Source of the DNA: Candidatus Kapaibacterium sp.
GTDB taxonomy: Bacteria; Bacteroidota; Ignavibacteria; Kapaibacteriales; UBA2268
Length of the DNA: 64,000 nucleotides
Assembly: GCA_032027125.1 (NCBI GenBank)
Contig: JAVSMQ010000001.1
Span: 3,241,620-3,305,619 of the forward strand
Direction: 5' to 3'
Part shown: in pieces, positions 6,149 through 22,317 of the stretch
Numbering within the stretch: the stretch's first letter is position 1
How the letters are laid out: each line of letters starts with the position of its first letter
Position numbers and translations under genes: made by a program
Notes under the pieces: generated by a model
Seen by the model: only the letters and a program-made list of their open reading frames with translations
Told to the model about the DNA's origin: nothing
Database searches by the model: none

Positions 6149-7729
6149 ATGGAAGATGAAGGTACAATTTATTTGAAAGAAAAGGCGATTTCAGAAATTG
6201 AAAATATTCTCAACCAGATAATTGAGAGTGAAATTCCTGAAGAAAAATTATTGGAACAAATGGGAATATTTAATAAAGGTCTTCCATTTGTAAAACTAAA
6301 CAGACCCTGCATTATTGCCGATGGAATAACCAAAATTCAGGAATCTGATTTTGATGCATTATTAAAATTGCACTCAAGAGTTTCAAATGATGGTAGAATT
6401 ATGAAGTTTGTTCCCGCCTCAGGAGCAGCAACACGTATGTTTAAAGATTTGATTACAACCTTCAATAATCGTCAAATAAAGTCTTTAGAAGAGAATTTAA
6501 GTAAAGAAATAGATTACACAATCGAATTTATAAAAAATATCAAAAAATTTGCTTTCTATGAAGTTTTAAATAATAAGTTATCGGAATTAGGCTATGATGC
6601 TGATAACATTATTTCTTCAGGCAATTTCAGAATAATTTTGGATTTATTATTATTTGATAAAGGGTTGAATTATTCATTACTACCAAAGGGTTTAATACCA
6701 TTTCACAGGTATAATGATGAGATTAGAACTCCTTTTTATGAGCATTTAATTGAAGCCTTGGACTATTCAGCGGATAACAATAAGAGAGCAAGAGTTCATT
6801 TCGCTGTGGCAAAAGAGTTTTTCGATGAAATTGAAAATCATTTATATGAAATTACTCAGTATTTGAAAAATAAAGGCAGTTTTGATATTAGTTTAACGAT
6901 ACAAAAGAAATCTACTAATACGATTGCCGTTGATATGAATAACGAGATTATCTTAGATGATGAAAATAATCTGATATTCCGGCCCGGCGGTCATGGTGCT
7001 TTAATTGAAAATCTCAATGAGTTAAATGGTGATTTGGTATATATTAAAAATATTGATAATATTCAGACCGATGATTTGAAAGAGACTACAATTTTTTATA
7101 AAAAGCTTCTCGGTGGTTTTCTTGTTCAAACTCAGGATAAAATATTCGAATTATTAGTTGGTTTACATTCAGGTAATTACTCCTCATCTTTATTTTCGGA
7201 AATTGCTGAGTTTTCAAAGAATATACTTTCCATTAATACCGGCGATGATTATGAGTATAAATCTATAAATGAAAAAGCTGAATTTTGGAAAAAGTGTCTT
7301 GATAAACCACTTAGAGTCTGCGGAATGGTAAGGAATTCCGGGGAGCCGGGCGGCGGTCCATTTTGGGTTGAGGATATCAGCGGAGAATTATCATTGCAGA
7401 TTGTTGAATCAGCTCAAATTGATTTAAATAATGTTGAACAGAAATTGATTTTCAATTCATCTACACATTTTAATCCGGTAGATTTGGTGTGTGGATTGAG
7501 AGATTACAAAGGCAATCCTTATGACCTGAACAAATTTATTGATATTAAAATGAGCTTTATAACAATTAAATCGGTTGGAAGTAAAGAAATCAAAGCTTAT
7601 GAGCTGCCTGGATTATGGAACGGTAGTATGGCTTATTGGAATACAGTATTTATTGAGGTACCTGATACTACTTTTACTCCTGTGAAAACAGTAAATGATT
7701 TGTTGAAGAAAGAGCATCTTCAAACTTGA
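6149..7729 (+). CDS. DUF4301-like / UDPGP-type nucleotidyltransferase-fold protein
   Basis: 526 aa. Motifs FVPASGAATRMFKDL and FRPGGHGALIENLNEL resemble the glycine-rich NTP-binding and G-H-G motifs of the UDP-glucose pyrophosphorylase superfamily. This is a tentative assignment. Confidence 0.4.
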   Translation: MEDEGTIYLKEKAISEIENILNQIIESEIPEEKLLEQMGIFNKGLPFVKLNRPCIIADGITKIQESDFDALLKLHSRVSNDGRIMKFVPASGAATRMFKDLITTFNNRQIKSLEENLSKEIDYTIEFIKNIKKFAFYEVLNNKLSELGYDADNIISSGNFRIILDLLLFDKGLNYSLLPKGLIPFHRYNDEIRTPFYEHLIEALDYSADNNKRARVHFAVAKEFFDEIENHLYEITQYLKNKGSFDISLTIQKKSTNTIAVDMNNEIILDDENNLIFRPGGHGALIENLNELNGDLVYIKNIDNIQTDDLKETTIFYKKLLGGFLVQTQDKIFELLVGLHSGNYSSSLFSEIAEFSKNILSINTGDDYEYKSINEKAEFWKKCLDKPLRVCGMVRNSGEPGGGPFWVEDISGELSLQIVESAQIDLNNVEQKLIFNSSTHFNPVDLVCGLRDYKGNPYDLNKFIDIKMSFITIKSVGSKEIKAYELPGLWNGSMAYWNTVFIEVPDTTFTPVKTVNDLLKKEHLQT

Positions 7730-7784
7730 AGAAAAAGCAGGTAAATTTTCTAAAGTTTTTTTTATTATATGATGAGGATATGAT

Positions 7785-8132
7785 ATGAATTTTGAAACTG
7801 AGATTAAGGGTAAAGTAACAATAGTTACTCTTAATGAAAAAAGATTTGATGCAAAAATTGCAGTTACATTTAAAGATGCCATGAAATCTTTAATTGATAA
7901 GGGTAGTCTATTCTTTATTGTCAACCTGAAAGCCGTAGAATTTATTGATAGCAGCGGGCTTGGCTCGATTGTTACAGTTCTAAAATTAGTCGGCAGAAAA
8001 GGTGATGTTTTTGTTAGCGGCTTAAATGACAGTGTTATGCAGATGTTTTCGCTAACAAGAATGGATAGGGTTTTTAAAATATTTCCTAATGTTGAAGATG
8101 CATTTGTTGAACTTAATAATAATTTAGAATGA
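7785..8132 (+). CDS. STAS-domain anti-sigma-factor antagonist (SpoIIAA/RsbV-like)
   Basis: 115 aa. STAS hallmarks are ...LKAVEFIDSSGLGSIV... with the phosphorylatable Ser in the DSSGLG context. Translationally coupled to the next gene (ATGA overlap at 8129). Confidence 0.8.
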   Translation: MNFETEIKGKVTIVTLNEKRFDAKIAVTFKDAMKSLIDKGSLFFIVNLKAVEFIDSSGLGSIVTVLKLVGRKGDVFVSGLNDSVMQMFSLTRMDRVFKIFPNVEDAFVELNNNLE

Positions 8133-8563
8133 ACGTGAATAATCCGGAAATAAAATTAATCATTACAAGTAACTTTGATAATGTTTCACTTATTGGTGTT
8201 ACTGTTCATCAACTCTGCAAATATTTTTATGACGATGAAGCATTTGCTTCAGAAATAGAGATTGGCATTGTTGAAGCTTGCAACAATGTTATTGAACATT
8301 CTTATCTTGCAAAGGACAATCAAGACATAGAAATGAGTTTAAAATTCTTTAAAGACAAATTAAATATTCGTTTAAGTGATTATGGTATTTTCAAAGACAA
8401 ACGAAAGAAACCCAAACTTGATTATGACCCCGATGATATTGATAATCTTCCTGAAGGTGGGATGGGGCTGTTTTTGATTTATAACATTATGGATGAGTTG
8501 TCATATTCAAGAAGTGGCGGAAAAAATACATTGTCAATGACAAAAAATATATCGGATAAGTAA
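8129..8563 (+). CDS. anti-sigma regulatory factor, Ser-protein kinase (RsbW/SpoIIAB-like HATPase_c)
   Basis: 144 aa. HATPase_c N-box VEACNNVIEHSY and G-box LPEGGMGLFLI. Sits immediately downstream of the STAS gene. Confidence 0.75.
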   Translation: MNVNNPEIKLIITSNFDNVSLIGVTVHQLCKYFYDDEAFASEIEIGIVEACNNVIEHSYLAKDNQDIEMSLKFFKDKLNIRLSDYGIFKDKRKKPKLDYDPDDIDNLPEGGMGLFLIYNIMDELSYSRSGGKNTLSMTKNISDK

Positions 8564-8980
8564 AGTGAGATTTAAATTGCTGCATATAATACTAAATTCA
8601 ATTGAAATATTACTTTCCAGTCTTTGGCAAGTTTTGTTCTTGACGAAAAATCAGGATAAATCCATATTACAAAGTTGGAGAATGACATCTTCCGGTATGT
8701 TATCTGCTGAATTTTTCTTACCAGGTGAATCGTACTTAGTGAGGAGTCATAACACATTTTTGAAAATTGAATTTTTGTTATATTCGGCGATGAATCAATT
8801 GAAACAGATTTTTCATTTCGATTTGGCATCGATTATGTTAAAGCAATAATTGGAAAAAATAAAAAGGATTTGAAGAATAGTCAATTTATAATTGTTGCCG
8901 GTGTTAATTTCTGTAATGAAAATGTGTTGGTTAAATTTAGTTTCTAAAAAATATTCTAATAGAATTACAAAATTACTTTT

Positions 8981-10786
8981 TTGATGAAAATTATGAGCTT
9001 TTACTTTGAGAAATTCGAGCATAGAAAACCTGAAAAGGCATTACCTTATTCTGCCGTAATTGAAACAATTTGGCAGTTATTTGCTACGATTAGTATAATC
9101 ATTGGTTTTTGGTATATTTCCTGGAGGTGGGGTTCATCACTTAATTACGATGCTTTATGGTTTTCCGTTCCACTGGTTCTTGCAGAAACTCTTGCTTATA
9201 TTGGATTAATTCTATTCTATATTAATATTTGGAAAGTGAAAGATTATCACAAATCAGAACCGCCTGAGTTATATTCCGAGTGTGTAGATGATAAAGCAGG
9301 AAATAACCGTCCATTAGCTATAGATATATATTTTCCTACTTATAATGAGGATGTTGAGCTTGTCCGTTTATCAATCAAAGATGCTAAAAAAATCACATAT
9401 CCACATAAGATTGATTTAAGAATTTATGTTTTGGATGACGGAAAAAGACCTGAAATGAAGCAGGTTGCCGATGAAGAAGGTGTCGGCTATATTACAAGAA
9501 ATAATAATCAGGGTTTTAAAGCCGGTAATTTAAGAAATGCAATGGAAAATACATCTGGTGATTTTATTGTCATTTGTGATGCTGATACAAGACCTTTTCC
9601 TACAATTTTGAATCATTGTATGGGGTATTTTAAAGATTCTGATGTAGCATGGGTACAGACTCCTCAATGGTTTTTCGATTTACCTGAAGGTACACCACTA
9701 CCTGTAATTATGAAAAAGTATTTAAGTTTACCTGGATTCTACTTCGGTAAACTATTTGAAAAAATTGCAGGTCCGGTTAATGTCGGACAGGACCCCTTTT
9801 GTAATGACCCTAAAATGTTTTATGATATCATTTTGAGAAGACGTAACTGGGCAAATGCTTCTTTCTGCTGCGGTGCCGGTTCAATTCATCGCCGCGAAGC
9901 TGTAATGAATGCTGCCGTAAAAACATTCGCAGACTCTATTGACGGATACATTCGTAAATATACCGAAGAAATTGAAGATGCAACACTGAAAAAGGAATTA
10001 CATGAGGCAATGGCACGTGAACTTATGATTGAAACCGAAATTACTCCTTATAAATATCATGTTTCCGAAGATATATATACTTCAATTATTATTCATTCCG
10101 AAAAATCAAGAAATTGGAAATCGGTTTTTCATCCTGATATCGAATCTAAAATGCTTTCTCCTCAGGATTTGTTGAGCTGGAGTGTCCAAAGATTTAAATA
10201 TGCAGGTGGTTCGCTTGATATCTTAATGCACGATAATCCATTATTTAGAAAGGGATTGAGTTTTGCACAAAAATTGATGTACGGCGCAACTTTTTGGTCA
10301 TATTTGTCAGGTATATGGAATATAATTTTTCTATTATCACCTATTGTTTATTTGTTTTTCGGAATTTCGCCTGTTTCTGCAGATTCTGTCGAATTTTTTA
10401 AGCATTTTCTGCCATTTATTGTTTTTATGCAGTTTTCATTTATGCTTGGAACATGGGGTATTCCTGCCTGGAAGGGCTCTTCATTTTATCTTTCATTTTT
10501 CCCGATAAATTTACGTGCAATATGGACTGTAATTAGAGGAGAAAAGATTAAATTTCCAATTACCCCAAAATCAAGACAGGAAGGGAACTATCTCATGCTT
10601 GTAATACCTCAGATTGTTGTAATGTCGCTTACTTTTCTTGGAATTCTTTTTGCAAGTGGAAAAATTATACTTGGATATTCGGATAATATTGGAGGTCTTA
10701 TTGCAAACATTTTTTGGGGCTTTGTAAACATTTTTTCACTTTGGGGTATTGTTGCCGCTTCAATTTGGAAGCCTGAAGACGAGTAA
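8981..10786 (+). CDS. processive family-2 glycosyltransferase, cellulose-synthase-like (BcsA/OpgH-like), no PilZ domain
   Basis: N- and C-terminal TM bundles flank a GT-A domain. It has DDG...DAD (VLDDGKRPE; VICDADTRP) and a Q-R-x-K/R-Y/W-A-x-G motif (SVQRFKYAGGSLDIL) matching the QxxRW processive motif. No RxxxR...DxSxxG PilZ signature at the C-terminus. Confidence 0.75.
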   Translation: MMKIMSFYFEKFEHRKPEKALPYSAVIETIWQLFATISIIIGFWYISWRWGSSLNYDALWFSVPLVLAETLAYIGLILFYINIWKVKDYHKSEPPELYSECVDDKAGNNRPLAIDIYFPTYNEDVELVRLSIKDAKKITYPHKIDLRIYVLDDGKRPEMKQVADEEGVGYITRNNNQGFKAGNLRNAMENTSGDFIVICDADTRPFPTILNHCMGYFKDSDVAWVQTPQWFFDLPEGTPLPVIMKKYLSLPGFYFGKLFEKIAGPVNVGQDPFCNDPKMFYDIILRRRNWANASFCCGAGSIHRREAVMNAAVKTFADSIDGYIRKYTEEIEDATLKKELHEAMARELMIETEITPYKYHVSEDIYTSIIIHSEKSRNWKSVFHPDIESKMLSPQDLLSWSVQRFKYAGGSLDILMHDNPLFRKGLSFAQKLMYGATFWSYLSGIWNIIFLLSPIVYLFFGISPVSADSVEFFKHFLPFIVFMQFSFMLGTWGIPAWKGSSFYLSFFPINLRAIWTVIRGEKIKFPITPKSRQEGNYLMLVIPQIVVMSLTFLGILFASGKIILGYSDNIGGLIANIFWGFVNIFSLWGIVAASIWKPEDE

Positions 10787-10881
10787 ATCTCAGGTCCATA
10801 TATTTGTAAATAGCTGATTTGAAAGTTTAATTTTGTTGTTTAAAGTAGATTTTTGCGTTCTAATTTAGTAAGGAAAAAAGA

Positions 10882-12222
10882 ATGTCTTTTAAAGAAAATT
10901 TAATTAAAGCCAGAAGCCATATCATTGTAATGTTAGGCATTATAATTGCCGGTGGTATTATTGTTGTTTTAGAAATATCTAATTTTAAAAGTGGATTTGA
11001 AAAGGAAAAATCTGAAGTGGAGAATTTAGTAGTTAAAAAAACAGCAGATATTAAACCGATATCCAAAAGCGAGTTAACAGATGAGGAAATTCAGTATGCA
11101 AAAATAGCATGGAATTTCTTTGAAAATAATTATATACCCGAAACCGGCATGGTTAATTCTACTGATAACTATAATGCATCAACAATGTGGGATACCGGCT
11201 CATATTTGATGGGCTTGATTTCTGCTTATCAACTTGGAATTATTGACCAAAAAGAATTTGATATACGGCTAACAAAAATATTGACTACTTTATCAGAGTT
11301 ACCTCTTTTTGACGGTGAAATTCCCAATAAATCATACAATACTGTATCACTCGAAATGATAGATTATAATAATAAGCTGTCGCCTCGCGGGATCGGTTGG
11401 TCAGCTATAGATATAGCGAGACTATTTATCCCTTTTCATGTAATAGCATGGAAATATCCCGAGCATAACGGGGAAATTGCACAGGTTTTAAGCAAATGGA
11501 ATTTTAGGAATATAGTAAAAGACGGTTATTTGTATTGTGCTGCTGTTGATTCAAATAACAGAAGTATATATTTTCAGGAAGGACGATTGGGATATGAGGA
11601 ATATTCGGCAAAATCATTTATCCTATTAGGGATTGATGTTTTTAAAGCCTTAAATTATGTAGATTTCCTCAAGTATATAGATATTTATGGTATAAAAGTT
11701 CCTGTTGACAGTAGAGAACATACTGAATATGGTGCTCATAACTATGTAGTAAGCGAACCGTACATTTTAAATGGTTTAGAATTTGGATTTGATGAAACCG
11801 GCGAAGAGTTTGCATATAGAGTTTATAAAGCTCAGGAATTAAGATGGAAAAATACAGGCATATTAACGGCAGTCAGCGAAGACAATATTGATTTACCTCC
11901 TTATTTTGTATATAACACTGTATATTCAAGCGGAAAAGCCTGGAATTGTATAACAGATGAAGGTGTTGATGCTTCTCAATTTAAATCCCTGTCGTCTAAA
12001 GCTGCTTTTGGATGGTATGTGATATACAAAACAGATTATACAGAAAAATTGATAGATAAAATAAAGAACAATTACGATATACAGAGGGGCTGGTACTCAG
12101 GAATATACGACAAAACAAACTTACAAAACAAATCAATAACCTGTAATACAAATGCCCTGATTCTTGAATCATTGGCATACAAAAAGTTCGGTCGTTTTAT
12201 CAATATTTTAAATATCCGGTAA
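10882..12222 (+). CDS. membrane-anchored periplasmic protein, paralog 1 of 3 (putative beta-glucan-binding/glycoside-hydrolase-like, DUF3131/glycoamylase-like)
   Basis: N-terminal signal-anchor TM. Shares with 17042..18439 and 18429..19838 the blocks IAWxxFxNNY, TGxVNSxDNY, LWDxGSY, LPNKxYNT, YQEGRLGYEEY, PVDSRxxxEYGAHN, RxKNTGILTA and PYFVYxxIYxxG. Family assignment is tentative. Confidence 0.5.
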   Translation: MSFKENLIKARSHIIVMLGIIIAGGIIVVLEISNFKSGFEKEKSEVENLVVKKTADIKPISKSELTDEEIQYAKIAWNFFENNYIPETGMVNSTDNYNASTMWDTGSYLMGLISAYQLGIIDQKEFDIRLTKILTTLSELPLFDGEIPNKSYNTVSLEMIDYNNKLSPRGIGWSAIDIARLFIPFHVIAWKYPEHNGEIAQVLSKWNFRNIVKDGYLYCAAVDSNNRSIYFQEGRLGYEEYSAKSFILLGIDVFKALNYVDFLKYIDIYGIKVPVDSREHTEYGAHNYVVSEPYILNGLEFGFDETGEEFAYRVYKAQELRWKNTGILTAVSEDNIDLPPYFVYNTVYSSGKAWNCITDEGVDASQFKSLSSKAAFGWYVIYKTDYTEKLIDKIKNNYDIQRGWYSGIYDKTNLQNKSITCNTNALILESLAYKKFGRFINILNIR

Positions 12223-12512
12223 ATAACATGATGATAAAAAATAACTATCTTCCGATATCTAACATCTTCATTTCATTGGAGGCTGGAGCGACTTTCCTAA
12301 TATATCGGGACTATTTATTTTTTGTGAACATATTTGAGCAGGAGTCTGAAAATATTTTATGATTGACATTAAAAAAAATATTATCAAACATTCTTTCTTT
12401 AAATTATTATCAGTTATAACAGTCATACGGAAATATTGTTATCATTTGATGACGTATTTTGGATTATACAGTAATTCAATTATTTTTTTCTCAATAAGTT
12501 TAAGGAATAATA

Positions 12513-13790
12513 ATGGGACATAAATTATTGGATAAATTATCTTATACTTCTACTGATTCTAATAGAGATCTGAGAATTGACTTTATCAGAGGTGTTGTTA
12601 TGTTGATTCTAATAATTAATCACCTTGAATTTAAGTCATGGTACAATTTTCTATTCAGCGAAAGAATAGGTATAGTATCAGGAGGTGAAGGTTTTGTCAT
12701 ACTTGCCGGTGTTGTGATAGGGATGATAAACCGAAAAAGGTTGGAAATAAATGGTTTTGTTATTACAACTAACAAACTGATTGACAGGGCATCAACGCTT
12801 TATATGACAAATATTTCAATAATTCTGATTATAGCTGTTCTATCTTTTGTTCCTATGATTAATACAAGTTCTGTCCAGACTTTTGTTGACAAACCGGGTA
12901 AAATTATATATTCTCTGTATCCAAAACCATTGATTGATTCCATAAAAATTGAAGATTATTCAGTCAGGTTTGAGAAAGACAGCGTCGCATTTCAAATCCC
13001 GTATCTTGCAACAGATAATATTCAAACAATAGCAGCTAAAACTGTATTGTTAAGAATTGGTCCTCATCAATACCAAATCATGGGACTTTATGTCTTACTT
13101 TTGTTTTTGACACCTTTAGCATTGCTTTTAATGAAAAATAAAAGAACTGCATTACTTTTAGCTTTATCCTGGATATTATATTTGAAAAATTGGGCTTTTC
13201 CTATCACAGGTTTCCCGCCGGGAATTACGGGATGTCAGTTCGAAAGCGGATTCCCACTTCTTACCTGGCAGCTGATTTTCTTTAATGGCATGGCTGTAGG
13301 TTATCATAAGGATAAACTGGTTGAAATAATGAAGGGAAGATTCAGATTTGCCATATTAACTTTATCATGGGTTTTATTCCTGTTTTTCTTATTTCTCGCT
13401 CAAAATAATCCTGACCCTGAAAAAGTTAACTTATATAGGTTTGCAATAATTGATACAGATTTATGGGGTAAATTATATAGTGAATATTTTCAAAAAAACA
13501 CATTAGGGATACTTCGTTTAGTGAATTATTTTGCTGTCCTTATGGTGTCTTATCATTTACTTACGAAGTTTTGGAGAGTTTTCGATAAATCTCTGGGTTG
13601 GTTCTTTGTTCCTATAGGTCAGTCATCCCTTTATGTTTTTATCATTCATATCTTTATTGTATTATTAATAAATCAGTTTCCTCAATTTTGGGATAATATG
13701 TTGTTTGGAACTTTAGGGCATACGTTAGCCCTGACAATTTCATGGCTGATGGTAAAATATAAGATATTATTTAATATTATTCCCAGATGA
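12513..13790 (+). CDS. multipass integral membrane protein (possible acyltransferase-3/OpgC-like)
   Basis: 425 aa with about 10 predicted hydrophobic helices and no soluble domain. Function inferred only from locus context (an OPG-like arrangement). Confidence 0.35.
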   Translation: MGHKLLDKLSYTSTDSNRDLRIDFIRGVVMLILIINHLEFKSWYNFLFSERIGIVSGGEGFVILAGVVIGMINRKRLEINGFVITTNKLIDRASTLYMTNISIILIIAVLSFVPMINTSSVQTFVDKPGKIIYSLYPKPLIDSIKIEDYSVRFEKDSVAFQIPYLATDNIQTIAAKTVLLRIGPHQYQIMGLYVLLLFLTPLALLLMKNKRTALLLALSWILYLKNWAFPITGFPPGITGCQFESGFPLLTWQLIFFNGMAVGYHKDKLVEIMKGRFRFAILTLSWVLFLFFLFLAQNNPDPEKVNLYRFAIIDTDLWGKLYSEYFQKNTLGILRLVNYFAVLMVSYHLLTKFWRVFDKSLGWFFVPIGQSSLYVFIIHIFIVLLINQFPQFWDNMLFGTLGHTLALTISWLMVKYKILFNIIPR

Positions 13791-13943
13791 ATCCAATTAT
13801 GATTAAAGATAATATAAATATTAAAAATCCTTTATTTAAACTGAATCTTATGACTTTAGTAAAAATGAATATTTACGGGTATATTCTTTTTTATGTTTTA
13901 TTCATTACTCTTTCTCAGGACTTAAAATTTATCAGGTGCAGTT

Positions 13944-16900
13944 ATGGAAAATAATGATACGCAATTAGAAAACTTAAGACTTGCTGAACTTAGAAGTTAT
14001 GCTCTTCTGGACACTCCTGCTCAGCAAACATTTGACGATATTACTCTAATGGCAGCACAAATATGTAATTTGCCGATAGCATTGATTTCACTAGTAGATG
14101 AAAAACGTCAGTGGTTTAAATCCAAAGTAGGTCTTGACGCAGATGAAACACCCCGTGAACATGCTTTTTGTGCACATGCTATCAAAAAGCCTGATGAGTT
14201 ATTCATAGTACCTGATGCTGAAGCAGATGAACGCTTTAAAGACAATCCACTTGTGATAGGAACACCGAATGTAAGATTTTATGCCGGTGCACCATTGGTA
14301 ACTAAAAATGGATTTGCTCTGGGCACATTGTGCGTAATTGATACAATTCCAAGAGAGCTTAATGTCCAGCAGTTGAAAGCATTAGATGCTTTACGCCGAA
14401 ACGTTATTACAGCCTTTGAATTAAGAAAAGCAATGCGAGATATTAAAGACACAGAAACTGCTTTAAAGGAAAGCCTTGCACGTCAGAATGCAATTTTCAA
14501 TAATGCGGCAGATGCAATTATATCAATTGACGCTAATGGAATTATTGATTCATTTAATCCTAAAGCGGTATCGCTTTTCAAAATCTCAGCTGAAGATGCT
14601 GTCGGACTAAATATTTCTGAATTTATGCCGCCTGAACACAGTTCAAAACATAATCAATATTTGAAGAATTATTTTGAATCGAAAGATAGTAAAGTAATTG
14701 GAAAATGTAATGAATTAACCTGCAAAAAATATGACGGGTCACTATTCATCGCCGAGTTATCTGTTGGTGAATTTGATGTCAACGGAAAGAAAATGTTTAC
14801 CGGTATTATTAGAGATATTACTGAAAGAAAAGAAATTGAAAATAACTTAAAGTACAGAGAAGAAAGATACAGAAAAATTTTCGAATTATCACCTGAAGTT
14901 ATTGTCCTGTTTGATGATAAAGGTTTTATACTGGACTTAAACGACAGGTGCTTTGATTTTACAGGCTATACGAAACAAGAATTATTAAACTTACATTTAA
15001 GTCATGTACCTTTTTTTGATAAGAAATCAAAAGAAACTGTAATGTATAATTTTTCAAACAGATTGTCTAACATATCAATTCCACCTTATGAAACTGAGTA
15101 TATCCATAAGAATGGAACAATTTGTACGGGGCTGATTTCGGCAGCGTTGATTAAAAATGAGAATGAACAGAATTTACAGATATTCGCAATGATTTCCGAT
15201 ATAACTGTGAGGAAAAATAATGAAAAGCAGATTAAACAGTCAAATGATATGATGAAGGCTATAAATTCCTTAATGGGTTTATATATTAGTGAATCGCTGC
15301 AAGAAAGTGAATTGTTTGATATTCTACTGGTTAAGCTTCTTGAAATATCCTGTTCGGAATATGGTTTTATTTCAAAGGTTTTGTATGACGTAGATGCTCA
15401 GCCTTACTTTAAAACTATATCAATTACAGATTTATCTTGGAATGAAGAAGTAAGAAAGCTCTATGATTTATATAGTAATAAAGATTTGGAATTCAGAAAT
15501 CTTAATACACTTTTCGGAAGTGTATTAAAAACCAAAAAAGCAGTAATATCAAATAATCCGGAAAATGATTCAAGGAGTGGCGGTTTACCGGAAAACCATC
15601 CGCCGCTAAATGCCTTTATCGGGATTCCGATTATGAAGAGCGATGATATAATCGGATTATACGGACTTGCTAACAGAATTGGAGGTTATGACAGGGAAAC
15701 AACGGATTATCTCGAGCCGTTTACTTCTACACTTGGGTATATACTTTTGGGATTAGATGAAAAAGATAAAAGAAAGAAAGCTGAGGAAGCTCTTAGAATA
15801 AATCAAAGAGCTATTGATTCAAGCAGTAACGGTATTGTGATTGTTGATGCTAAAGATACTCATCTTCCTGTAATTTATGTTAATAAAGGTTTTGAAAAAA
15901 TTACTGGTTATAAGTCTTACGATATTATTGGAAAGAATTGTAACATTTTACAGGGAACTGACAATGATCAACCCGGAATAACAGAGATAAGAAATGCAAT
16001 AAAAAATAATAAGCATGTTACAACTGTTTTAAGAAATTACAAAAAAGACGGAACTTTGTTTTGGAATGAATTGACGATTTCGCCGATATTTGACGATAAT
16101 AAAGATATTACTCATTTTGTAGGTTTGCAAAACGATATAACAGAAAGAAAAACATCGCAGGAAAAATTAGAAGCAGCATACAGAACAATTAAAAATGATT
16201 TTGAAGCAGCAGCTCAAATACAGAGAGATTTACTGCCTAATGTGAAATATGTTATTCCCGGACTCAGTTTTAAATGGCTTTTTATTCCAAGTGTTGAAGT
16301 ATCAGGTGATATTTTCAATTATTTTCAACTTGATGAAAATATAACGGCATTCTACCTGCTTGATGTTTCAGGTCATGGAATACCGGCTGCAATGATGAGT
16401 GTAACATTAAGCAGAATGATTTCACCCTATCAAAAACCTGAATCTCTGTTGAGAATTTTAAATCCGGTAACAAATAAGTACATAATTACTCCACCTGCAG
16501 AAGTAATCAGCCATTTAAATAGTATTTACCAATCTGAATTAGATTCAATTTCTTATTTCACTATGATTTACGGGGTAATTGATTTTGGGAAAAACAAAAT
16601 TACATTTTGTCAGGCAGGCCATCCATCACCAATGTTACTGACTTCCGGTGGTGAAGTTAAATCGGTTGGTACATCAGGCTTCCCTGTAGGTATGCTTCCC
16701 GACATGAATTATGAAAATCAGGAATTTGATTTTATTAAAGGTGATAAATTATTTATATATTCAGATGGAGTTACCGAATGTTCCAATAATCAAGATATTC
16801 TCTTTTCTGAGGAATTATTTATTAAGACAATATCTGAGAATAGAAATAAGCAGATGGAAGAAATAATTGAAAATCTGAAAATAAAACTTAAAAACTGGAA

Positions 16901-16964
16901 ATCCGGTGATGATTTTGAAGATGATATAACCATATTGGCTATTGAGAGGACTTATGATGTTTAA
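13944..16964 (+). CDS. multi-sensor PP2C-type Ser phosphatase (GAF-PAS-PAS-GAF-LOV-SpoIIE/RsbU-like)
   Basis: N-terminal GAF (…CAHAIKKPDELFIVPDAEADERF…GAPL). PAS domains carrying DITERK-type PAC ends (three times). A LOV core YVNKGFEKITGYKSYDIIGKNCNILQG…FWNELTISPIFDDNKDITHFVGLQNDITERK, close to canonical GRNCRFLQG with the adduct Cys. C-terminal PP2C/SpoIIE region (DVSGHGIPAAMMSV… DDITILAI). Confidence 0.85.
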   Translation: MENNDTQLENLRLAELRSYALLDTPAQQTFDDITLMAAQICNLPIALISLVDEKRQWFKSKVGLDADETPREHAFCAHAIKKPDELFIVPDAEADERFKDNPLVIGTPNVRFYAGAPLVTKNGFALGTLCVIDTIPRELNVQQLKALDALRRNVITAFELRKAMRDIKDTETALKESLARQNAIFNNAADAIISIDANGIIDSFNPKAVSLFKISAEDAVGLNISEFMPPEHSSKHNQYLKNYFESKDSKVIGKCNELTCKKYDGSLFIAELSVGEFDVNGKKMFTGIIRDITERKEIENNLKYREERYRKIFELSPEVIVLFDDKGFILDLNDRCFDFTGYTKQELLNLHLSHVPFFDKKSKETVMYNFSNRLSNISIPPYETEYIHKNGTICTGLISAALIKNENEQNLQIFAMISDITVRKNNEKQIKQSNDMMKAINSLMGLYISESLQESELFDILLVKLLEISCSEYGFISKVLYDVDAQPYFKTISITDLSWNEEVRKLYDLYSNKDLEFRNLNTLFGSVLKTKKAVISNNPENDSRSGGLPENHPPLNAFIGIPIMKSDDIIGLYGLANRIGGYDRETTDYLEPFTSTLGYILLGLDEKDKRKKAEEALRINQRAIDSSSNGIVIVDAKDTHLPVIYVNKGFEKITGYKSYDIIGKNCNILQGTDNDQPGITEIRNAIKNNKHVTTVLRNYKKDGTLFWNELTISPIFDDNKDITHFVGLQNDITERKTSQEKLEAAYRTIKNDFEAAAQIQRDLLPNVKYVIPGLSFKWLFIPSVEVSGDIFNYFQLDENITAFYLLDVSGHGIPAAMMSVTLSRMISPYQKPESLLRILNPVTNKYIITPPAEVISHLNSIYQSELDSISYFTMIYGVIDFGKNKITFCQAGHPSPMLLTSGGEVKSVGTSGFPVGMLPDMNYENQEFDFIKGDKLFIYSDGVTECSNNQDILFSEELFIKTISENRNKQMEEIIENLKIKLKNWKSGDDFEDDITILAIERTYDV

Positions 16965-17041
16965 CTTATATAACATTATAAAATTTAATTACATATTAAT
17001 CGCTTACGAGCAAATTATCTTAAGTTAAGGAGTAAAAATTT

Positions 17042-18439
17042 ATGAAAATAATAAATGTTAAACAAAAATTGCTTGCTATATTTGTTCTGTGTATTTTTAC
17101 TTTCTGCCCGGAAAAAATTATTTCACAAAATAATCATCACGGTAAGAATGGTGCTTTAACAGAAACTGAAATGAAAATTGCAAAAATCGCCTGGAAATAT
17201 TTTCAAAATAACTATATTGAGGAAACAGGATTAGTCAATTCTGTGGACAATTATCCGACAATTACGTTATGGGACAACGGTTCCTATCTCGGAGCATTAG
17301 TTGCTGCATTCGAACTCGGAATAATTGATAATAATGAATTTGAAAAACGTATGTCTTTGTTTTTAAAAACTACCGGTAATCTGACCTTATTTAATTCTGA
17401 ACTTCCAAATAAGGTATATAATACAAAAACATTGAATAAGGTTGATTATGTAAATAAAAATAAAGATTTAGGATATTCTGCTCTGGACATAGCAAGATAT
17501 ATTTTATGGCTCAAAATCGTAAAAGAAAGATACCCGCAGTACAGTAATACAATTGATAATATAATGTTATCCTATGACTTTTCGAAAATTATTGATAGTG
17601 ATGGAAATTTATATGGCGGGAATCTCAACGAAAAAAATGAAATAAAATATTATCAGGAAGGGCGATTAGGATATGAAGAATACTGCGGAAAAATCTTTGC
17701 TCTTTGGGGATTTAATACTGCCAAGGCATCAAAACTTGAACCCTATACTACAAAAATAATATACGATATTGAAATTCCGGTAGATTCGAGAGATTCAAGG
17801 GAATATGGCGCCCATAATGCCGTACTTGCTGAATCATTTATACTTGATGGAATTGAACTTAACTGGGACTTGCCTGATGACAAATCAACAGATGATATGA
17901 AAAGTTCTGATTCAATTCTAACCAAAGAATTAGCTGATAGAATTTTTAAAGTTCAGTATGAAAGATTTAAGAATACTGGAATTCTGACGGCAAGGAGCGA
18001 ACATCAACTGGACGAATCGCCGTATTTTGTTTATGATTGTATTTATGCAAATGGATATCGCTGGAATACTATTGATACGAAAGGGAATTTTGTTCCGGAA
18101 TATGCAGCAGTTTCAACAAAAGCGGCTTTTGGATTATGGGTATTATGGAATTCATCATATTCAGACACTCTTTTTAATAATTCAGTAAATAATTATGATG
18201 CTGAAAAGGGCTTCTATGAAGGTATTTATGAAAATAACAAAAAACCTATTAAAGCATTTTCTGCCAACAATAACGGTATAATCCTGGAATGTCTTCTATA
18301 TAAGGTACAAGGTAAACTTCTAAAATATAATTCAGACATTAATTCACTTTGGGATCAAAGTATAAATGAAGGTACTGCCGATAAAAAAAGAATTCTTGAC
18401 AGACAAATAAAATATTTAAAAGGTAAAAATGAGAAATAG
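17042..18439 (+). CDS. secreted paralog 2 of 3 (DUF3131/glycoamylase-like periplasmic protein)
   Basis: Signal peptide. Shares the conserved blocks listed for 10882..12222. Confidence 0.5.
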   Translation: MKIINVKQKLLAIFVLCIFTFCPEKIISQNNHHGKNGALTETEMKIAKIAWKYFQNNYIEETGLVNSVDNYPTITLWDNGSYLGALVAAFELGIIDNNEFEKRMSLFLKTTGNLTLFNSELPNKVYNTKTLNKVDYVNKNKDLGYSALDIARYILWLKIVKERYPQYSNTIDNIMLSYDFSKIIDSDGNLYGGNLNEKNEIKYYQEGRLGYEEYCGKIFALWGFNTAKASKLEPYTTKIIYDIEIPVDSRDSREYGAHNAVLAESFILDGIELNWDLPDDKSTDDMKSSDSILTKELADRIFKVQYERFKNTGILTARSEHQLDESPYFVYDCIYANGYRWNTIDTKGNFVPEYAAVSTKAAFGLWVLWNSSYSDTLFNNSVNNYDAEKGFYEGIYENNKKPIKAFSANNNGIILECLLYKVQGKLLKYNSDINSLWDQSINEGTADKKRILDRQIKYLKGKNEK

Positions 18440-19838
18440 AATATTATCAAGATTAATCATCATAATTTTTTTATTAAATATTACAGGATTCTCCGGATGT
18501 GCTTTTGTTATTGATTCATTTGAAAGCGGAATAAATTCCATAAAGCGTGTGTTTCATACGAATAGAACCGGAACACTTGATGATAAGGAATATAAATGGG
18601 CTAAAATAGCCTGGCAGTATTTTGATAATAACTACAACAAAAATACAGGTTTGGTAAATGGCAAGGATGGATATCAAATAGCTACATTATGGAATATGTC
18701 TGATAATATAATGGCACTTATGGCAGCCTATGATTTGAAAATAATCAGTGAACACGAATTTGAAGGAAAACTCAGTAACCAGCTTAGATTCTTAAGTAAT
18801 ATGCAGCTTTGCAGTAATCTTCTGCCTAACAGAACATATAACACAGTCACCGGATTAATGGTTGATTATTCATGGAATCCTGGTGAATCCGGATGGGATG
18901 CTGTTGATATAGGCAGAATGTTGATTGTTTTGAAAATACTTGCCCAAAAGCATTCGCAATATAATGAATTTATTGATAAAATTGTTTTAAGGTGGGACTT
19001 ATGTTCGGCAGTTGATTCAGATGGTAATCTATTAAGCAGCAGTAAATGGAATAATTCGATTTCTGCATATCAGGATGGATATATCGGAACTAAAGAATAT
19101 ATTTCCAGAGGTTTTCAGGCTTGGGGTTATAATGTAAAAAAAGCAGGTAAATTTGAAAATTTCAACAAGGAAATCATTTTCAAAAAAGTTCTTTTTGTTG
19201 ATGGAAGAGATGAACGGTTAACAAAAAGTATAAATTCATTAGTTAGTTCCCATTATTTACTTGATAGGATTGAATTTGATAATCAGAACTTTGGTTCGAT
19301 TAAGGAAATTGATTATTTAGAAATTGATGACAGATACAAAATTCAAACTGAAAATATTTACAAGATACAGAAAATGAGATTTGAAATTGATAAAGTTATG
19401 ACTGCAAGAAACACTTATCAAAGTAATTCCGAACCTTTTATAATTTATAACACAATTTTTGGAAATGGATATACTTGGAATGTTTTAGACCCGAATGGTA
19501 AATATTTGAAAAATAAGGCACTCATTTCAACACAATCAGTGTTTAGTATGTGGGTTTTATGGGATGACTATTATACTGATGAACTAATGAACTTTATGAA
19601 GAATGCATTTGACCCATTATCCGGCTGGTATGAAGGCAGGTATGAATCATCAAGCAGTTTTGAAACAACAATTGTTAGTTCCACAAATGCTGTGATTCTT
19701 GAATCGTTATGGTTTAAAACTAATGGAAGATTATATGAGCAGACTGATATAAGCAATTCATATTATCTCAAATCCATTACAAGTGAATTATCAAATAAAA
19801 CCGGTTGCATTGGTAAGATTAGAAAAATATCAAAATAA
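18429..19838 (+). CDS. lipoprotein paralog 3 of 3 (DUF3131/glycoamylase-like periplasmic protein)
   Basis: Signal peptide with a Cys (…ITGFSGC). Shares the paralog blocks (IAWQYFDNNY, LWNMSDN, LPNRTYNT, YQDGYIGTKEY). Overlaps the previous gene by 11 bp. Confidence 0.5.
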   Translation: MRNRILSRLIIIIFLLNITGFSGCAFVIDSFESGINSIKRVFHTNRTGTLDDKEYKWAKIAWQYFDNNYNKNTGLVNGKDGYQIATLWNMSDNIMALMAAYDLKIISEHEFEGKLSNQLRFLSNMQLCSNLLPNRTYNTVTGLMVDYSWNPGESGWDAVDIGRMLIVLKILAQKHSQYNEFIDKIVLRWDLCSAVDSDGNLLSSSKWNNSISAYQDGYIGTKEYISRGFQAWGYNVKKAGKFENFNKEIIFKKVLFVDGRDERLTKSINSLVSSHYLLDRIEFDNQNFGSIKEIDYLEIDDRYKIQTENIYKIQKMRFEIDKVMTARNTYQSNSEPFIIYNTIFGNGYTWNVLDPNGKYLKNKALISTQSVFSMWVLWDDYYTDELMNFMKNAFDPLSGWYEGRYESSSSFETTIVSSTNAVILESLWFKTNGRLYEQTDISNSYYLKSITSELSNKTGCIGKIRKISK

Positions 19839-19852
19839 AACAGGAAATAATT

Positions 19853-21780: not shown

Positions 21781-22317
<537 letters not shown>

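What the first reader, a model, noticed from the sequence alone, without database searches (positions are those of the whole stretch)
7785..16964. Blue-light LOV sensor fused to a PP2C phosphatase, with STAS antagonist and HATPase kinase but no sigma factor, embedded in a glucan-synthase locus
The 1006-aa protein carries GAF, PAS, PAS, GAF, then a textbook LOV core (…GYKSYDIIGKNCNILQG… with the adduct-forming Cys in the NCxxLQG context, and …FWNELTISPIFDD…FVGLQNDITERK) ahead of a SpoIIE/RsbU-type PP2C domain. An STAS antagonist (DSSGLG) and an RsbW-like kinase sit 6 kb upstream, coupled to each other and directly preceding a processive GT2. No sigma factor gene lies between or beside them. This suggests a light- and small-molecule-responsive partner-switching circuit. 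Its output may be polysaccharide synthesis, with the GT2 lacking a PilZ domain, rather than a sigma factor. Light-gated partner switching that controls an exopolysaccharide synthase in a presumably non-phototrophic FCB bacterium would be unusual.
Basis: partly seen in the sequence, partly recalled or inferred. Interest (0 to 1): 0.7.

Follow-up and report, generated by a model that had tools for sequence, protein, structure and literature searches.

The report
Light-sensing phosphatase switch wired to glucan synthase
A three-protein phosphorylation switch that normally controls a sigma factor is instead built into a widespread beta-glucan synthesis gene cluster, and in this Kapabacteria genome its input phosphatase carries a blue-light (LOV) sensor domain.

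Summary
Window 6149-21712 is one same-strand cluster:
- a DUF4301 protein, an STAS protein and an RsbW-type kinase;
- a BcsA-like GT2 without PilZ;
- three DUF3131 proteins and an OpgC protein;
- a 1006-aa GAF-PAS-PAS-GAF-LOV-PP2C protein.

The LOV core matches YtvA and PpSB1 structures at about 1e-33. It keeps the adduct Cys and five of six flavin contacts; the first phosphate-binding Arg is Asn (NCNILQG).

- Of 48 related GT2 loci with full flanks, 46 carry STAS, kinase and PP2C. The other two are one contig, cut at a DUF4301-STAS fusion.
- No sigma factor or GGDEF protein recurs in 84 loci.
- The phosphatase's sensor varies by lineage: LOV here, H-NOX/hybrid kinase/Hpt feeding REC-PP2C in Thiothrix-type loci, CHASE3 in Methylobacillus.

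Two new annotations emerged. DUF4301 has a UDP-sugar pyrophosphorylase fold. DUF3131 resembles beta-1,2-glucanases and the Cgs cyclization domain.

The kind is known: sigma-less partner switches control polysaccharides (SypE/SypA, BgrUVW, HenR/All4160), and LOV-PP2C is a common architecture. This conserved, c-di-GMP-free cluster appears undescribed. The direct target (GT2 or sugar-nucleotide enzyme) and light responsiveness remain inferred.

The parts
6149..7729 (+). DUF4301 protein (526 aa); predicted UDP-sugar (UDP-glucose/UDP-GlcNAc type) pyrophosphorylase fold; candidate target or co-regulated precursor supplier
   Evidence: PF14134 at 1e-193. AF2 model pLDDT 88.5. All top 50 Foldseek PDB hits are UGPase or UAP/AGX enzymes, E about 1e-10, prob 1.0. 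Fused to STAS in L002. Directly precedes STAS in L001, L087 and L084.
7785..8132 (+). STAS-domain antagonist (115 aa); predicted phospho-site Ser56 (nt 7950-7952)
   Evidence: PF01740 at 1.5e-17 and TIGR00377 at 4e-18. D55 and S56 are invariant in 69/69 locus homologues.
8129..8563 (+). RsbW/SpoIIAB-type serine kinase (144 aa), translationally coupled to STAS by a 4-bp overlap
   Evidence: PF13581 at 5e-23; RsbW NCBIfam models at 1e-20, below cut-off. N-box E49/N53/H57, G1 D84/G86 and G2 G113 are near-invariant in 68 homologues.
8565..8980 (+). Non-coding gap holding a remnant of a GH2 gene lost in this lineage
   Evidence: tblastn with the L001 GH2 (714 aa): residues 657-696 match at 42% identity, E 0.002. 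GH2 occupies this slot in 43 of 84 loci.
8981..10786 (+). BcsA-like processive GT2 (about 597-601 aa; likely start ATG 8993), no PilZ; invariant DDG, DAD, SED and QRFKY motifs
   Evidence: PF00535. BcsA structures at 5e-42. 2274 homologues at 58-88% identity. Invariant columns in A1. No PilZ motif; membrane helices flank the GT domain.
10882..12222 (+). DUF3131 protein 1 (446 aa, N-terminal hydrophobic anchor or signal); SGL-clan (alpha/alpha)6-like, probably acting on beta-1,2-glucan
   Evidence: PF11329 at 2e-145. Family profile hits the Cgs cyclization domain 8wy1 at 1.7e-5 and Cgs 8rf9 at 0.018. The low-confidence model's best fold hits are GH144 and new SGL beta-1,2-glucanases. Hydrophobic N-terminus.
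12513..13790 (+). OpgC-family membrane acyltransferase (425 aa)
   Evidence: PF10129 OpgC_C at 1e-51. Six or more hydrophobic segments. Present in 17 of 84 loci.
13944..16964 (+). Input phosphatase: GAF-PAS-PAS-GAF-LOV-PP2C (1006 aa)
   Evidence: Pfam domains. PP2C motifs GD, DxxGHG, DG..E and DD are invariant in 62 locus PP2Cs. The exact protein is MDT3740468.1 from a Candidatus Kapabacteria MAG.
15801..16178 (+). LOV core (aa about 620-745), adduct Cys666 (nt 15939-15941) in the motif GKNCNILQG
   Evidence: PDB LOV hits at 4e-34. YtvA_fam at 6e-51. Residue mapping: C, Q66, R79, N94, N104 and Q123 are kept; R63 is Asn.
17042..18439 (+). DUF3131 protein 2 (465 aa, signal-like N-terminus)
   Evidence: PF11329 at 1e-123; hydrophobic N-terminus.
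18429..19838 (+). DUF3131 protein 3 (469 aa, lipoprotein-like N-terminus); overlaps the previous gene by 11 bp
   Evidence: PF11329 at 2e-93; gene spacing.
19853..21712 (+). PHB-depolymerase-family esterase domain (aa about 44-290) fused to a conserved unknown domain (aa 316-619) that is a separate gene of about 330 aa in relatives
   Evidence: NF050058 at 2e-31 and PF10503. The C-terminal half is 49% identical to the 351-aa L001 protein. This family is present in 43 of 84 loci.

Best explanation
This is a sigma-factor-independent partner-switching module dedicated to a beta-glucan biosynthesis cluster.

Shown:
- An STAS protein, an RsbW-type kinase and a PP2C phosphatase, each with intact catalytic or phospho-acceptor motifs, are a near-obligate part of a conserved cluster.
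- The cluster is built around a PilZ-less BcsA-like GT2 and exported DUF3131 proteins. An NDP-sugar pyrophosphorylase, GH2, GH9, OpgC and an esterase are optional.
- The cluster occurs in Bacteroidota-related lineages, Desulfobacterota, Alpha-, Beta- and Gammaproteobacteria and Sericytochromatia.
- The phosphatase is the variable input. Here it carries GAF, PAS and a LOV domain that keeps the adduct Cys and most flavin contacts.

Inferred mechanism:
1. The kinase phosphorylates STAS Ser56.
2. The PP2C removes that phosphate when its sensors (blue light through LOV; small ligands through GAF/PAS) change its activity.
3. Unphosphorylated STAS then acts in one of two ways. It may sequester the kinase away from an enzyme target (classic switching), or it may bind and activate the enzyme directly (as with SypA or All4160).
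4. The target is the GT2 synthase and/or the adjacent UDP-sugar pyrophosphorylase-like DUF4301, so polymer synthesis is gated post-translationally without c-di-GMP.

The product is probably a periplasmic or extracellular beta-glucan. Beta-1,2 linkage is likely, given DUF3131's resemblance to beta-1,2-glucanases and Cgs, together with OpgC. The sign of the light response is unknown.
For: Domains and motifs.

Co-conservation:
- STAS is in 71, the kinase in 73 and PP2C in 62 of 84 loci.
- The full trio is in 46 of 48 loci with at least 8 kb on both sides.
- Gene orders such as STAS-kinase-GT2 and STAS-NTP_transferase-kinase-GH2-GT2 recur.

No sigma factor and no c-di-GMP components:
- No sigma hit in the 84 loci.
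- No Sigma70 family is matched by two or more of 150 unlabelled ORFs.
- The sigma seed works elsewhere.
- No GGDEF-motif protein is in any locus and the GT2 has no PilZ.

Interchangeable inputs:
- H-NOX + hybrid kinase + Hpt + REC-PP2C, and CHASE3-PP2C.
- The window's PP2C catalytic domain is closest to REC-PP2Cs (47-52% identity), while its LOV domain is closest to LOV proteins.

Enzyme link:
- DUF4301 has a UDPGP fold.
- A DUF4301-STAS fusion exists.
- DUF4301-STAS-kinase-PP2C forms a tight operon in L087.
- A PF00483 nucleotidyltransferase sits between STAS and kinase in about 20 loci.

Glucan nature.

Precedents: PMC13555669 (HenR/All4160), PMC8256260 (SypA, HmpV), PMC7647112 (BgrUVW, HsbA-HsbD).
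Against: - No experiment supports any step; no protein-protein contact was tested.
- The first phosphate-binding Arg of the LOV core is Asn, a variant absent from the 120 closest LOV-PP2C-type hits.
- The nearest non-congeneric relative has a degenerate LOV (C to L, Q to H, Q to E), so photosensing may be weakening in this clade.
- The search for enzyme fusions among the 150 best STAS representatives found only fusions to PP2C, kinase and PilZ, none to GT2 or a pyrophosphorylase.
- DUF4301 is mostly unlinked to STAS elsewhere.
- An NDP-sugar enzyme is present in only 28 of 48 full loci.
- The DUF3131 model is low confidence (pLDDT 54).
- A sigma factor encoded elsewhere in the genome cannot be excluded from 64 kb.
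Confidence: 0.65

Rival explanations
1. The partner switch is real and tied to the glucan cluster, but the LOV-like domain no longer works as a photoreceptor. It would act as a structural, dimerisation or redox PAS module, and the effective signals would enter through the GAF/PAS domains.
For: - R63 (YtvA numbering) is Asn in the window and in L001, and F is Ile (NCNILQ). None of the top 120 hits shares this; 75 have NC[RK][FLY]LQ.
- The closest other relative, P0241, has lost the Cys, Q66 and Q123.
- True LOV motifs occur in only 2 of 84 loci.
Against: - The adduct Cys, Q66, R79, N94, N104 and Q123 are all retained.
- Overall similarity to proven photoreceptors is very high (4e-34).
- The same sequence is conserved at 93% between two diverged genomes that are about 80% identical at the nucleotide level. 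That argues for purifying selection.
Confidence: 0.3
2. The module is a conventional anti-sigma / anti-anti-sigma system. Its sigma factor is encoded elsewhere, and it controls transcription of the glucan cluster or a wider regulon rather than enzyme activity.
For: - The kinase scores best against RsbW models (1e-20, below cut-off).
- Only 64 kb of a 4.5-Mb genome is visible.
- Some non-canonical STAS systems are still thought to act on transcription (PMC8256260).
Against: - No sigma factor lies within about 10 kb in any of 84 loci, although the trio is present in 46 of 48 full loci. The sigma seed is validated.
- Anti-sigma kinases are normally encoded beside their sigma factor (established knowledge of the sigB and spoIIA operons).
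- Enzyme genes are interleaved between the STAS and kinase genes.
- A DUF4301-STAS fusion exists.
Confidence: 0.12
3. The switch acts through c-di-GMP. As in S. meliloti BgrUVW-BgrR or P. aeruginosa HsbA-HsbD, unphosphorylated STAS would activate a diguanylate cyclase encoded elsewhere, and c-di-GMP would activate synthesis.
For: - Direct precedents exist for beta-glucan and biofilm control (PMC7647112, citing Baena 2019 and Valentini 2016).
- One close STAS relative is fused to a PilZ domain (P0481).
Against: - No GGDEF-motif protein is in any of 84 loci.
- The GT2 has no PilZ domain or RxxxR/DxSxxG motifs.
- No other c-di-GMP receptor is evident in the cluster.
Confidence: 0.08

Closest known systems
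Anabaena HenR / Alr3423 / All4160 (STAS-glycosyltransferase) partner-switching-like module (PMC13555669)
   Same: A SpoIIE-type phosphatase and a serine kinase set the phosphorylation of an STAS domain, which directly controls a polysaccharide biosynthetic enzyme. No sigma factor is involved.
   Different: In Anabaena the STAS is fused to a non-processive GT, and the kinase and phosphatase genes are dispersed. Here STAS is free-standing (fused to DUF4301 in one relative). The trio is encoded inside the cluster with a BcsA-like processive GT2, and the phosphatase carries LOV/GAF/PAS sensors.
Vibrio fischeri SypE-SypA in the syp polysaccharide locus (PMC8256260, PMC4517449)
   Same: An STAS protein phosphorylated on Ser56 is encoded within a polysaccharide locus. 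The unphosphorylated form promotes polysaccharide or biofilm production, and there is no cognate sigma factor.
   Different: SypE combines the kinase and PP2C in one response-regulator protein, and the syp locus is a Wzx/Wzy-type multi-GT cluster. Here the kinase and PP2C are separate proteins and the synthase is a single processive GT2.
Sinorhizobium meliloti BgrU/BgrW/BgrV-BgrR control of the mixed-linkage beta-glucan synthase BgsA (Baena 2019, as summarised in PMC7647112)
   Same: A PP2C/kinase/STAS partner switch governs output of a BcsA-like beta-glucan synthase.
   Different: The S. meliloti output is a diguanylate cyclase, and BgsA is activated by c-di-GMP. Here no GGDEF protein is in any locus and the GT2 lacks a c-di-GMP-binding domain.
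Bacillus subtilis YtvA/RsbU/RsbV/RsbW and LOV-SpoIIE phosphatases (PMC4844311)
   Same: The LOV core is about 45% identical to YtvA-type LOV and has the adduct Cys. LOV-PP2C is a recognised class of bacterial LOV protein, and blue light is known to feed partner-switching cascades.
   Different: In Bacillus the output is SigB, and LOV sits on an STAS stressosome protein. Here LOV is fused to the PP2C behind four further sensor domains, the output is not a sigma factor, and Arg63 is Asn.
Pseudomonas HptB-HsbR-HsbA (PMC7647112, PMC6482189)
   Same: The Thiothrix-type versions of this cluster use hybrid kinase, then Hpt, then REC-PP2C, then STAS, as in HptB-HsbR-HsbA.
   Different: HsbR carries both kinase and PP2C domains, and its outputs are FlgM/RpoS and the cyclase HsbD, not a glucan synthase cluster.
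BcsA cellulose synthase, and the OpgH / Cgs beta-1,2-glucan systems
   Same: The GT2 aligns with the BcsA GT and membrane-channel regions (5e-42). OpgC and SGL-clan-like DUF3131 proteins recall OPG and cyclic beta-1,2-glucan metabolism.
   Different: There is no PilZ, BcsB, OpgG/D or GH94 domain. The motifs are SED and QRFKY instead of TED and QxxRW. The linkage of the product is unknown.

Membership tests
LOV photoreceptor domain | PAS fold with significant similarity to proven LOV domains | tested here: met
   YtvA, YF1 and PpSB1 structures at 4e-34 to 7e-33; YtvA_fam at 6e-51.
LOV photoreceptor domain | Adduct-forming Cys in the GxNCRFLQ motif | tested here: met
   Cys666 lies in GKNCNILQG. 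The motif deviates at two positions (R to N, F to I).
LOV photoreceptor domain | Flavin-contacting Gln/Asn network (YtvA Q66, N94, N104, Q123) | tested here: met
   All four are conserved in the window and in L001.
LOV photoreceptor domain | Pair of Arg residues binding the FMN phosphate (YtvA R63, R79) | tested here: inconclusive
   R79 is conserved; R63 is Asn. The effect on FMN binding is unknown.
LOV photoreceptor domain | Flavin binding and a blue-light photocycle | not testable with these tools
   Requires the expressed protein and UV-vis spectroscopy.
Partner-switching system (RsbU/V/W, SpoIIE/AA/AB type) | STAS protein with a phosphorylatable Ser in DSxG | tested here: met
   D55 and S56 are invariant in 69/69 homologues.
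Partner-switching system (RsbU/V/W, SpoIIE/AA/AB type) | GHKL-type serine kinase with N, G1 and G2 boxes | tested here: met
   PF13581 at 5e-23; box residues are near-invariant in 68 homologues.
Partner-switching system (RsbU/V/W, SpoIIE/AA/AB type) | PP2C/SpoIIE phosphatase with metal-binding Asp motifs | tested here: met
   PF07228 at 2e-45; the GD, DxxGHG, DG and DD motifs are invariant in 62 PP2Cs.
Partner-switching system (RsbU/V/W, SpoIIE/AA/AB type) | Cognate sigma factor encoded with the module | tested here: not met
   No sigma factor in the window flanks or in 84 loci; seed validated. It therefore belongs with the non-canonical, sigma-less systems.
Partner-switching system (RsbU/V/W, SpoIIE/AA/AB type) | Mutually exclusive binding of the kinase to STAS or to a target | not testable with these tools
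   Needs binding assays.
BcsA-type c-di-GMP-gated cellulose synthase | GT2 core with D, DxD, TED and QxxRW motifs and a membrane channel | tested here: inconclusive
   DDG and DAD are present. SED and QRFKY replace TED and QxxRW and are invariant in 18 homologues. The protein aligns with BcsA at 5e-42 in two blocks.
BcsA-type c-di-GMP-gated cellulose synthase | C-terminal PilZ domain | tested here: not met
   No PilZ Pfam hit; no RxxxR or DxSxxG motif; the protein ends after the last membrane helix.
OPG (OpgGH) system | OpgH synthase and OpgG/OpgD periplasmic proteins | tested here: not met
   No OpgH or OpgG family hit; only OpgC_C is present.
SGL clan (GH144/GH162/GH189 beta-1,2-glucan enzymes), for DUF3131 | (alpha/alpha)6 fold related to beta-1,2-glucanases or the Cgs transglycosylase | tested here: inconclusive
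   Profile hit to 8wy1 at 1.7e-5 over about 90 residues. The top Foldseek hits are GH144, SGL and Cgs, but the model's pLDDT is 54.
UDPGP (UDP-glucose/UDP-GlcNAc pyrophosphorylase) family, for DUF4301 | Full-length fold match to UGPase or UAP | tested here: met
   pLDDT 88.5. The top 50 PDB hits are all UGPase or UAP, E about 1e-10, TM 0.40-0.55. There is no sequence-level hit.
UDPGP (UDP-glucose/UDP-GlcNAc pyrophosphorylase) family, for DUF4301 | Nucleotidyltransferase activity and sugar-1-phosphate specificity | not testable with these tools
   Needs an enzyme assay.

The most novel reading that the evidence does not exclude
In a GT2 family found in more than 500 species representatives, a phosphorylation-based partner switch has replaced c-di-GMP/PilZ as the post-translational gate of a BcsA-like glucan synthase, or of its dedicated UDP-sugar supplier. 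The sensor is plug-in: blue light through LOV here, nitric oxide through H-NOX phosphorelays in Thiothrix-type loci, and CHASE3 elsewhere. This Kapabacteria locus would then be a natural light-switchable polysaccharide synthase system.
Probability: 0.4. Interest if true: 0.75.

Novelty: new variant of a known kind. Interest (0 to 1): 0.62.

Why it matters
Processive bacterial glucan synthases are usually thought of as c-di-GMP-gated. A widespread family that instead carries its own kinase/phosphatase/STAS switch would add a second general control logic for exopolysaccharide synthesis.

It would also give two large domains of unknown function a testable role: DUF4301 (at least 8000 proteins) and DUF3131.

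A LOV-driven version would be a ready-made optogenetic handle on polysaccharide production. The H-NOX versions would link nitric oxide sensing to matrix or periplasmic glucan synthesis.

Tried and rejected
- Sequence and profile searches of DUF4301 against PDB sequences found nothing. Only the fold comparison was informative.
- The idea that DUF4301 is the universal partner of the switch was tested with 80 metagenome loci and rejected. Almost none have STAS, kinase or GT2 nearby.
- A search for fusions of the STAS protein to enzymes (1.8 billion representatives, best 150 listed) found fusions only to REC-PP2C, to the kinase, to further STAS copies and to PilZ. None was to GT2 or a pyrophosphorylase.
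- Apparent long 'fusion' ORFs in Ramlibacter loci were ORF-calling artefacts in high-GC DNA.
- Promoter and terminator scans were at chance level in this AT-rich DNA.
- PADLOC found no defence-system relationship.
- Other 'LOV' seed hits in loci are ordinary PAS domains without the Cys motif.
- The DUF3131 structure from a three-sequence alignment was poor (pLDDT 54), so its fold matches are only supportive.
- Literature searches for DUF3131, DUF4301, and H-NOX plus partner switching found no description of this cluster. The Baena 2019 paper itself is not in the library.

Full report
**1. What is in the window**

Between 6149 and 21712 all sizeable ORFs lie on the + strand with short gaps (55, 417, 95, 290, 153, 77, -11 and 14 bp). 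In order, with Pfam and NCBIfam assignments:
- 6149-7729: DUF4301.
- 7785-8132: STAS, motif D55-S56-SGLG.
- 8129-8563: HATPase_c_2 kinase, best matching RsbW. It overlaps STAS by 4 bp.
- 8981-10786: GT2, BcsA-like. The consensus start MSFYF implies the ATG at 8993.
- 10882-12222: DUF3131.
- 12513-13790: OpgC_C.
- 13944-16964: a 1006-aa GAF-PAS-PAS-GAF-PAS(LOV)-SpoIIE protein.
- 17042-18439 and 18429-19838: two more DUF3131 proteins.
- 19853-21712: an esterase fusion.

Exact-sequence look-up places the window in a Candidatus Kapabacteria MAG, on a 4.53-Mb contig. The STAS is MDT3740462.1 and the LOV-PP2C is MDT3740468.1, annotated only as 'PAS domain S-box protein'.

**2. The LOV claim**
- Residues about 612-760 hit YtvA, the YF1 chimera and the Pseudomonas short-LOV structures at 4e-34 to 7e-33. 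They hit the NCBIfam YtvA family model at 6e-51.
- In the alignments, the adduct Cys (Cys666) and Q66, R79, N94, N104 and Q123 (YtvA numbering) are conserved.
- The one departure is Arg63, one of the two FMN-phosphate ligands, which is Asn. The motif reads NCNILQG instead of NCRFLQG.
- This variant is shared by the 80%-identical relative L001 but by none of the 120 best LOV-PP2C-type homologues. Of those, 75 have NC[RK][FLY]LQ.
- The nearest other relative, a Kapaibacterium REC-PAS-PP2C (P0241), has a degenerate LOV with C to L, Q66 to H and Q123 to E.

The domain is therefore very probably a LOV photosensor, with a real residual doubt.

LOV-PP2C itself is a common architecture. Hundreds of proteins of about 400-420 aa are annotated RsbU, and the class is listed in the 2014 review PMC4844311.

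**3. The partner-switch components are intact**
- Across homologues from related loci, STAS D55 and S56 are invariant (69/69).
- The kinase N-box (E49, N53, H57), G1 (D84, G86) and G2 (G113) residues are invariant or nearly so (68 sequences).
- The PP2C motifs GD, DxxGHG, DG..E and DD are invariant in 62 sequences.

**4. Co-conservation with the glucan genes**

The GT2 belongs to a very conserved family: 2274 hits below 1e-20, at 58-88% identity across phyla. A scan of one genome per species found 559 relatives, of which 80 loci with 10-kb flanks were kept. With three further contexts and the window, this gives 84 loci.

Counts over the 84 loci:

| Component | Loci (of 84) |
|---|---|
| DUF3131 | 82 |
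| RsbW-like kinase | 73 |
| STAS | 71 |
| PP2C | 62 |
| GH2 | 43 |
| esterase-associated unknown domain | 43 |
| PF00483 nucleotidyltransferase | 25 |
| GH9 | 21 |
| OpgC | 17 |
| DUF4301 | 13 |

- Among the 48 loci with at least 8 kb on both sides of the GT2, 46 have the whole STAS + kinase + PP2C trio.
- The other two are one contig seen twice, cut at a DUF4301-STAS fusion gene.
- L003 and L018 are likewise one contig seen twice, so the independent full-flank count is smaller than 48. This does not change the conclusion.
- Recurrent gene orders are STAS-kinase-GT2 (18 loci), STAS-NTP_transferase-kinase-(GH2)-(GH9)-GT2, and DUF4301-STAS-kinase-GH2-GT2.
- The lineages include Kapaibacteria/Ignavibacteria, Calditrichaceae, Desulfoluna and other Desulfobacterota, and Sericytochromatia. 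Proteobacterial members are Thiothrix, Leucothrix, Ferrimonas, Methylobacillus, Ramlibacter, Noviherbaspirillum and Paracoccus.

**5. No sigma factor and no c-di-GMP parts**
They do hit ORFs in four unrelated metagenome loci, so the seed works.
- Pfam scans of window flank ORFs show none.
- A Pfam tally of 150 unlabelled 140-330-aa ORFs from the loci shows no Sigma70 family matched by two or more members.
- No ORF in any locus has an RxGG[DE]EF motif.
- The GT2 lacks PilZ motifs and ends after its last membrane helix.

**6. The input is modular**
- In Thiothrix-type loci the PP2C is a 400-aa REC-PP2C. It is preceded by H-NOX (PF07700), a hybrid histidine kinase and an Hpt protein. H-NOX is present in 20 loci.
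- In Methylobacillus the input is CHASE3-PP2C.
- A genuine LOV motif occurs only in the window and L001.
- The window's PP2C catalytic domain is 47-52% identical to REC-PP2Cs but only 34-39% identical to canonical LOV-PP2Cs. Its LOV domain is closest to LOV proteins. This pattern indicates a sensor swap onto a resident phosphatase.

**7. What the enzymes are**

*DUF4301*
- It had no sequence-level PDB match.
- A 31-sequence AlphaFold model (pLDDT 88.5) matches only eukaryote-type UDP-glucose and UDP-GlcNAc pyrophosphorylases over its full length (top 50 hits, E about 1e-10, prob 1.0).
- Its invariant PASGAA(T/S)RM, RPGGHGAL and NIDN motifs resemble the UGPase nucleotide loop, PPGHGD and NIDN motifs. 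That comparison is from my own recollection and was not tested.
- In other lineages a PF00483 + hexapeptide nucleotidyltransferase occupies the equivalent slot, often between the STAS and kinase genes. This looks like a non-orthologous replacement.

*DUF3131*
- A 38-sequence profile hits the cyclization (GH189) domain of cyclic beta-1,2-glucan synthase (8wy1 at 1.7e-5; Cgs 8rf9/8rf0 at 0.018).
- A low-confidence model (pLDDT 54) finds GH144 and newer beta-1,2-glucanases plus Cgs as its best folds (family background in PMC12102758).
- All three window paralogues have hydrophobic N-termini, so they probably act outside the cytoplasm.

*GT2*
- It aligns with BcsA in two blocks.
- It has invariant SED and QRFKY where BcsA has TED and QxxRW.

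Together with OpgC, this points to a beta-glucan, plausibly beta-1,2-linked. The linkage is not established.

**8. Which protein is the target?**

For the nucleotidyltransferase:
- a DUF4301-STAS fusion (673 aa);
- a DUF4301-STAS-kinase-PP2C operon with no GT2 on the 17.5-kb contig, which ends 765 bp downstream of the phosphatase gene (L087);
- DUF4301-STAS adjacency in an unrelated genome (L084);
- interleaving of PF00483 between STAS and kinase.

Against it as the general target:
- only 28 of 48 full loci encode either nucleotidyltransferase;
- 80 metagenomic DUF4301 loci almost never have STAS or kinase nearby;
- the best 150 STAS representatives include fusions to REC-PP2C, to the kinase, to further STAS copies and to PilZ, but none to an enzyme.

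The invariant companions of the trio are the GT2 and DUF3131. I therefore rank the GT2 synthase complex as the most likely target and the sugar-nucleotide enzyme as a strong second or additional target.

**9. Comparison with known systems**

Sigma-less partner switches that control polysaccharide output are established:
- SypE/SypA and HmpU/V/W (PMC8256260);
- BgrU/W/V acting through the cyclase BgrR on mixed-linkage beta-glucan, and HsbA-HsbD (PMC7647112);
- HenR/Alr3423 acting on the STAS-fused glycosyltransferase All4160 (PMC13555669, 2026).

The present system works like these, but the combination differs. The trio is free-standing and encoded inside a conserved cluster with a processive PilZ-less GT2. 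No cyclase is present, and the sensors are interchangeable. I found no paper describing it, within the limits of that library.

**10. Verdict**
- The kind is known, so this is a new variant rather than a new category.
- Light control and the identity of the direct target remain to be shown.

Noticed in passing
window 8565-8980: The 417-bp gap between the kinase and the GT2 carries a faint remnant of the C-terminus of a GH2 gene (42% identity over 40 aa, E 0.002). That gene is intact at this position in the 80%-identical relative L001 and is present in 43 of 84 loci. The GH2 gene was therefore lost recently in this lineage.
   Followed up: partly
window 8981-10786 (GT2 residues 362-364 and 403-407): The whole GT2 family has invariant SED and QRFKY where BcsA-type synthases have TED and QxxRW. 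The acceptor-stacking Trp is Tyr. This may relate to a non-cellulose linkage.
   Followed up: no
window 6149-7729; loci L002, L084, L085, L087: DUF4301 (at least 8000 homologues, no literature) has a UDP-sugar pyrophosphorylase fold. It is fused to STAS in L002 and followed by STAS in L084 and L087. In L085 it sits beside a glycogen phosphorylase.
   Followed up: yes
L170:10001-18149: One of the closest relatives of the window's PP2C domain lies in a cluster REC-PP2C / hybrid kinase / STAS / kinase. This cluster sits directly upstream of a glycogen (alpha-glucan) phosphorylase and has no sigma factor. The same switch clade may regulate other glucose-polymer enzymes.
   Followed up: no
L013:2106-5750 and 19 other Thiothrix-type loci: H-NOX (haem-NO-binding), a hybrid histidine kinase, an Hpt protein and a REC-PP2C sit next to STAS, nucleotidyltransferase, kinase and GT2. 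This implies NO-responsive control of the same glucan cluster.
   Followed up: partly
P0241 / L087:10001-12064: The nearest non-congeneric homologue of the LOV-PP2C unit has a LOV-derived PAS domain that has lost the adduct Cys (NLAFLH) and Q123. This is a case of LOV degeneration within Kapaibacteria.
   Followed up: partly
P0481: A close relative of the window's STAS is fused to a PilZ domain (276 aa). This hints that some members of the STAS clade are coupled to c-di-GMP.
   Followed up: no
window 19853-21712: The 619-aa protein fuses a PHB-depolymerase-family esterase to a conserved domain of about 300 aa. In relatives that domain is a separate gene with no Pfam match. It is rich in aromatic/Gly repeats and ends in ...SWMY, which resembles an outer-membrane beta-barrel; this is my reading and was not tested.
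   Followed up: partly
window 21928-22317: A 129-aa ORF with a GTG start looks like the C-terminal part of an aldo/keto reductase, so it is probably a truncated gene fragment just downstream of the cluster. This is judged by eye from the sequence only.
   Followed up: no
window 25032-26782 (- strand): Two adjacent ORFs: a 362-aa P-loop ATPase-like protein (GANGVGKSN) and a 220-aa protein. They sit in a very AT-rich stretch (GC about 0.28) and could be a small mobile or defence-type pair. Not scanned.
   Followed up: no
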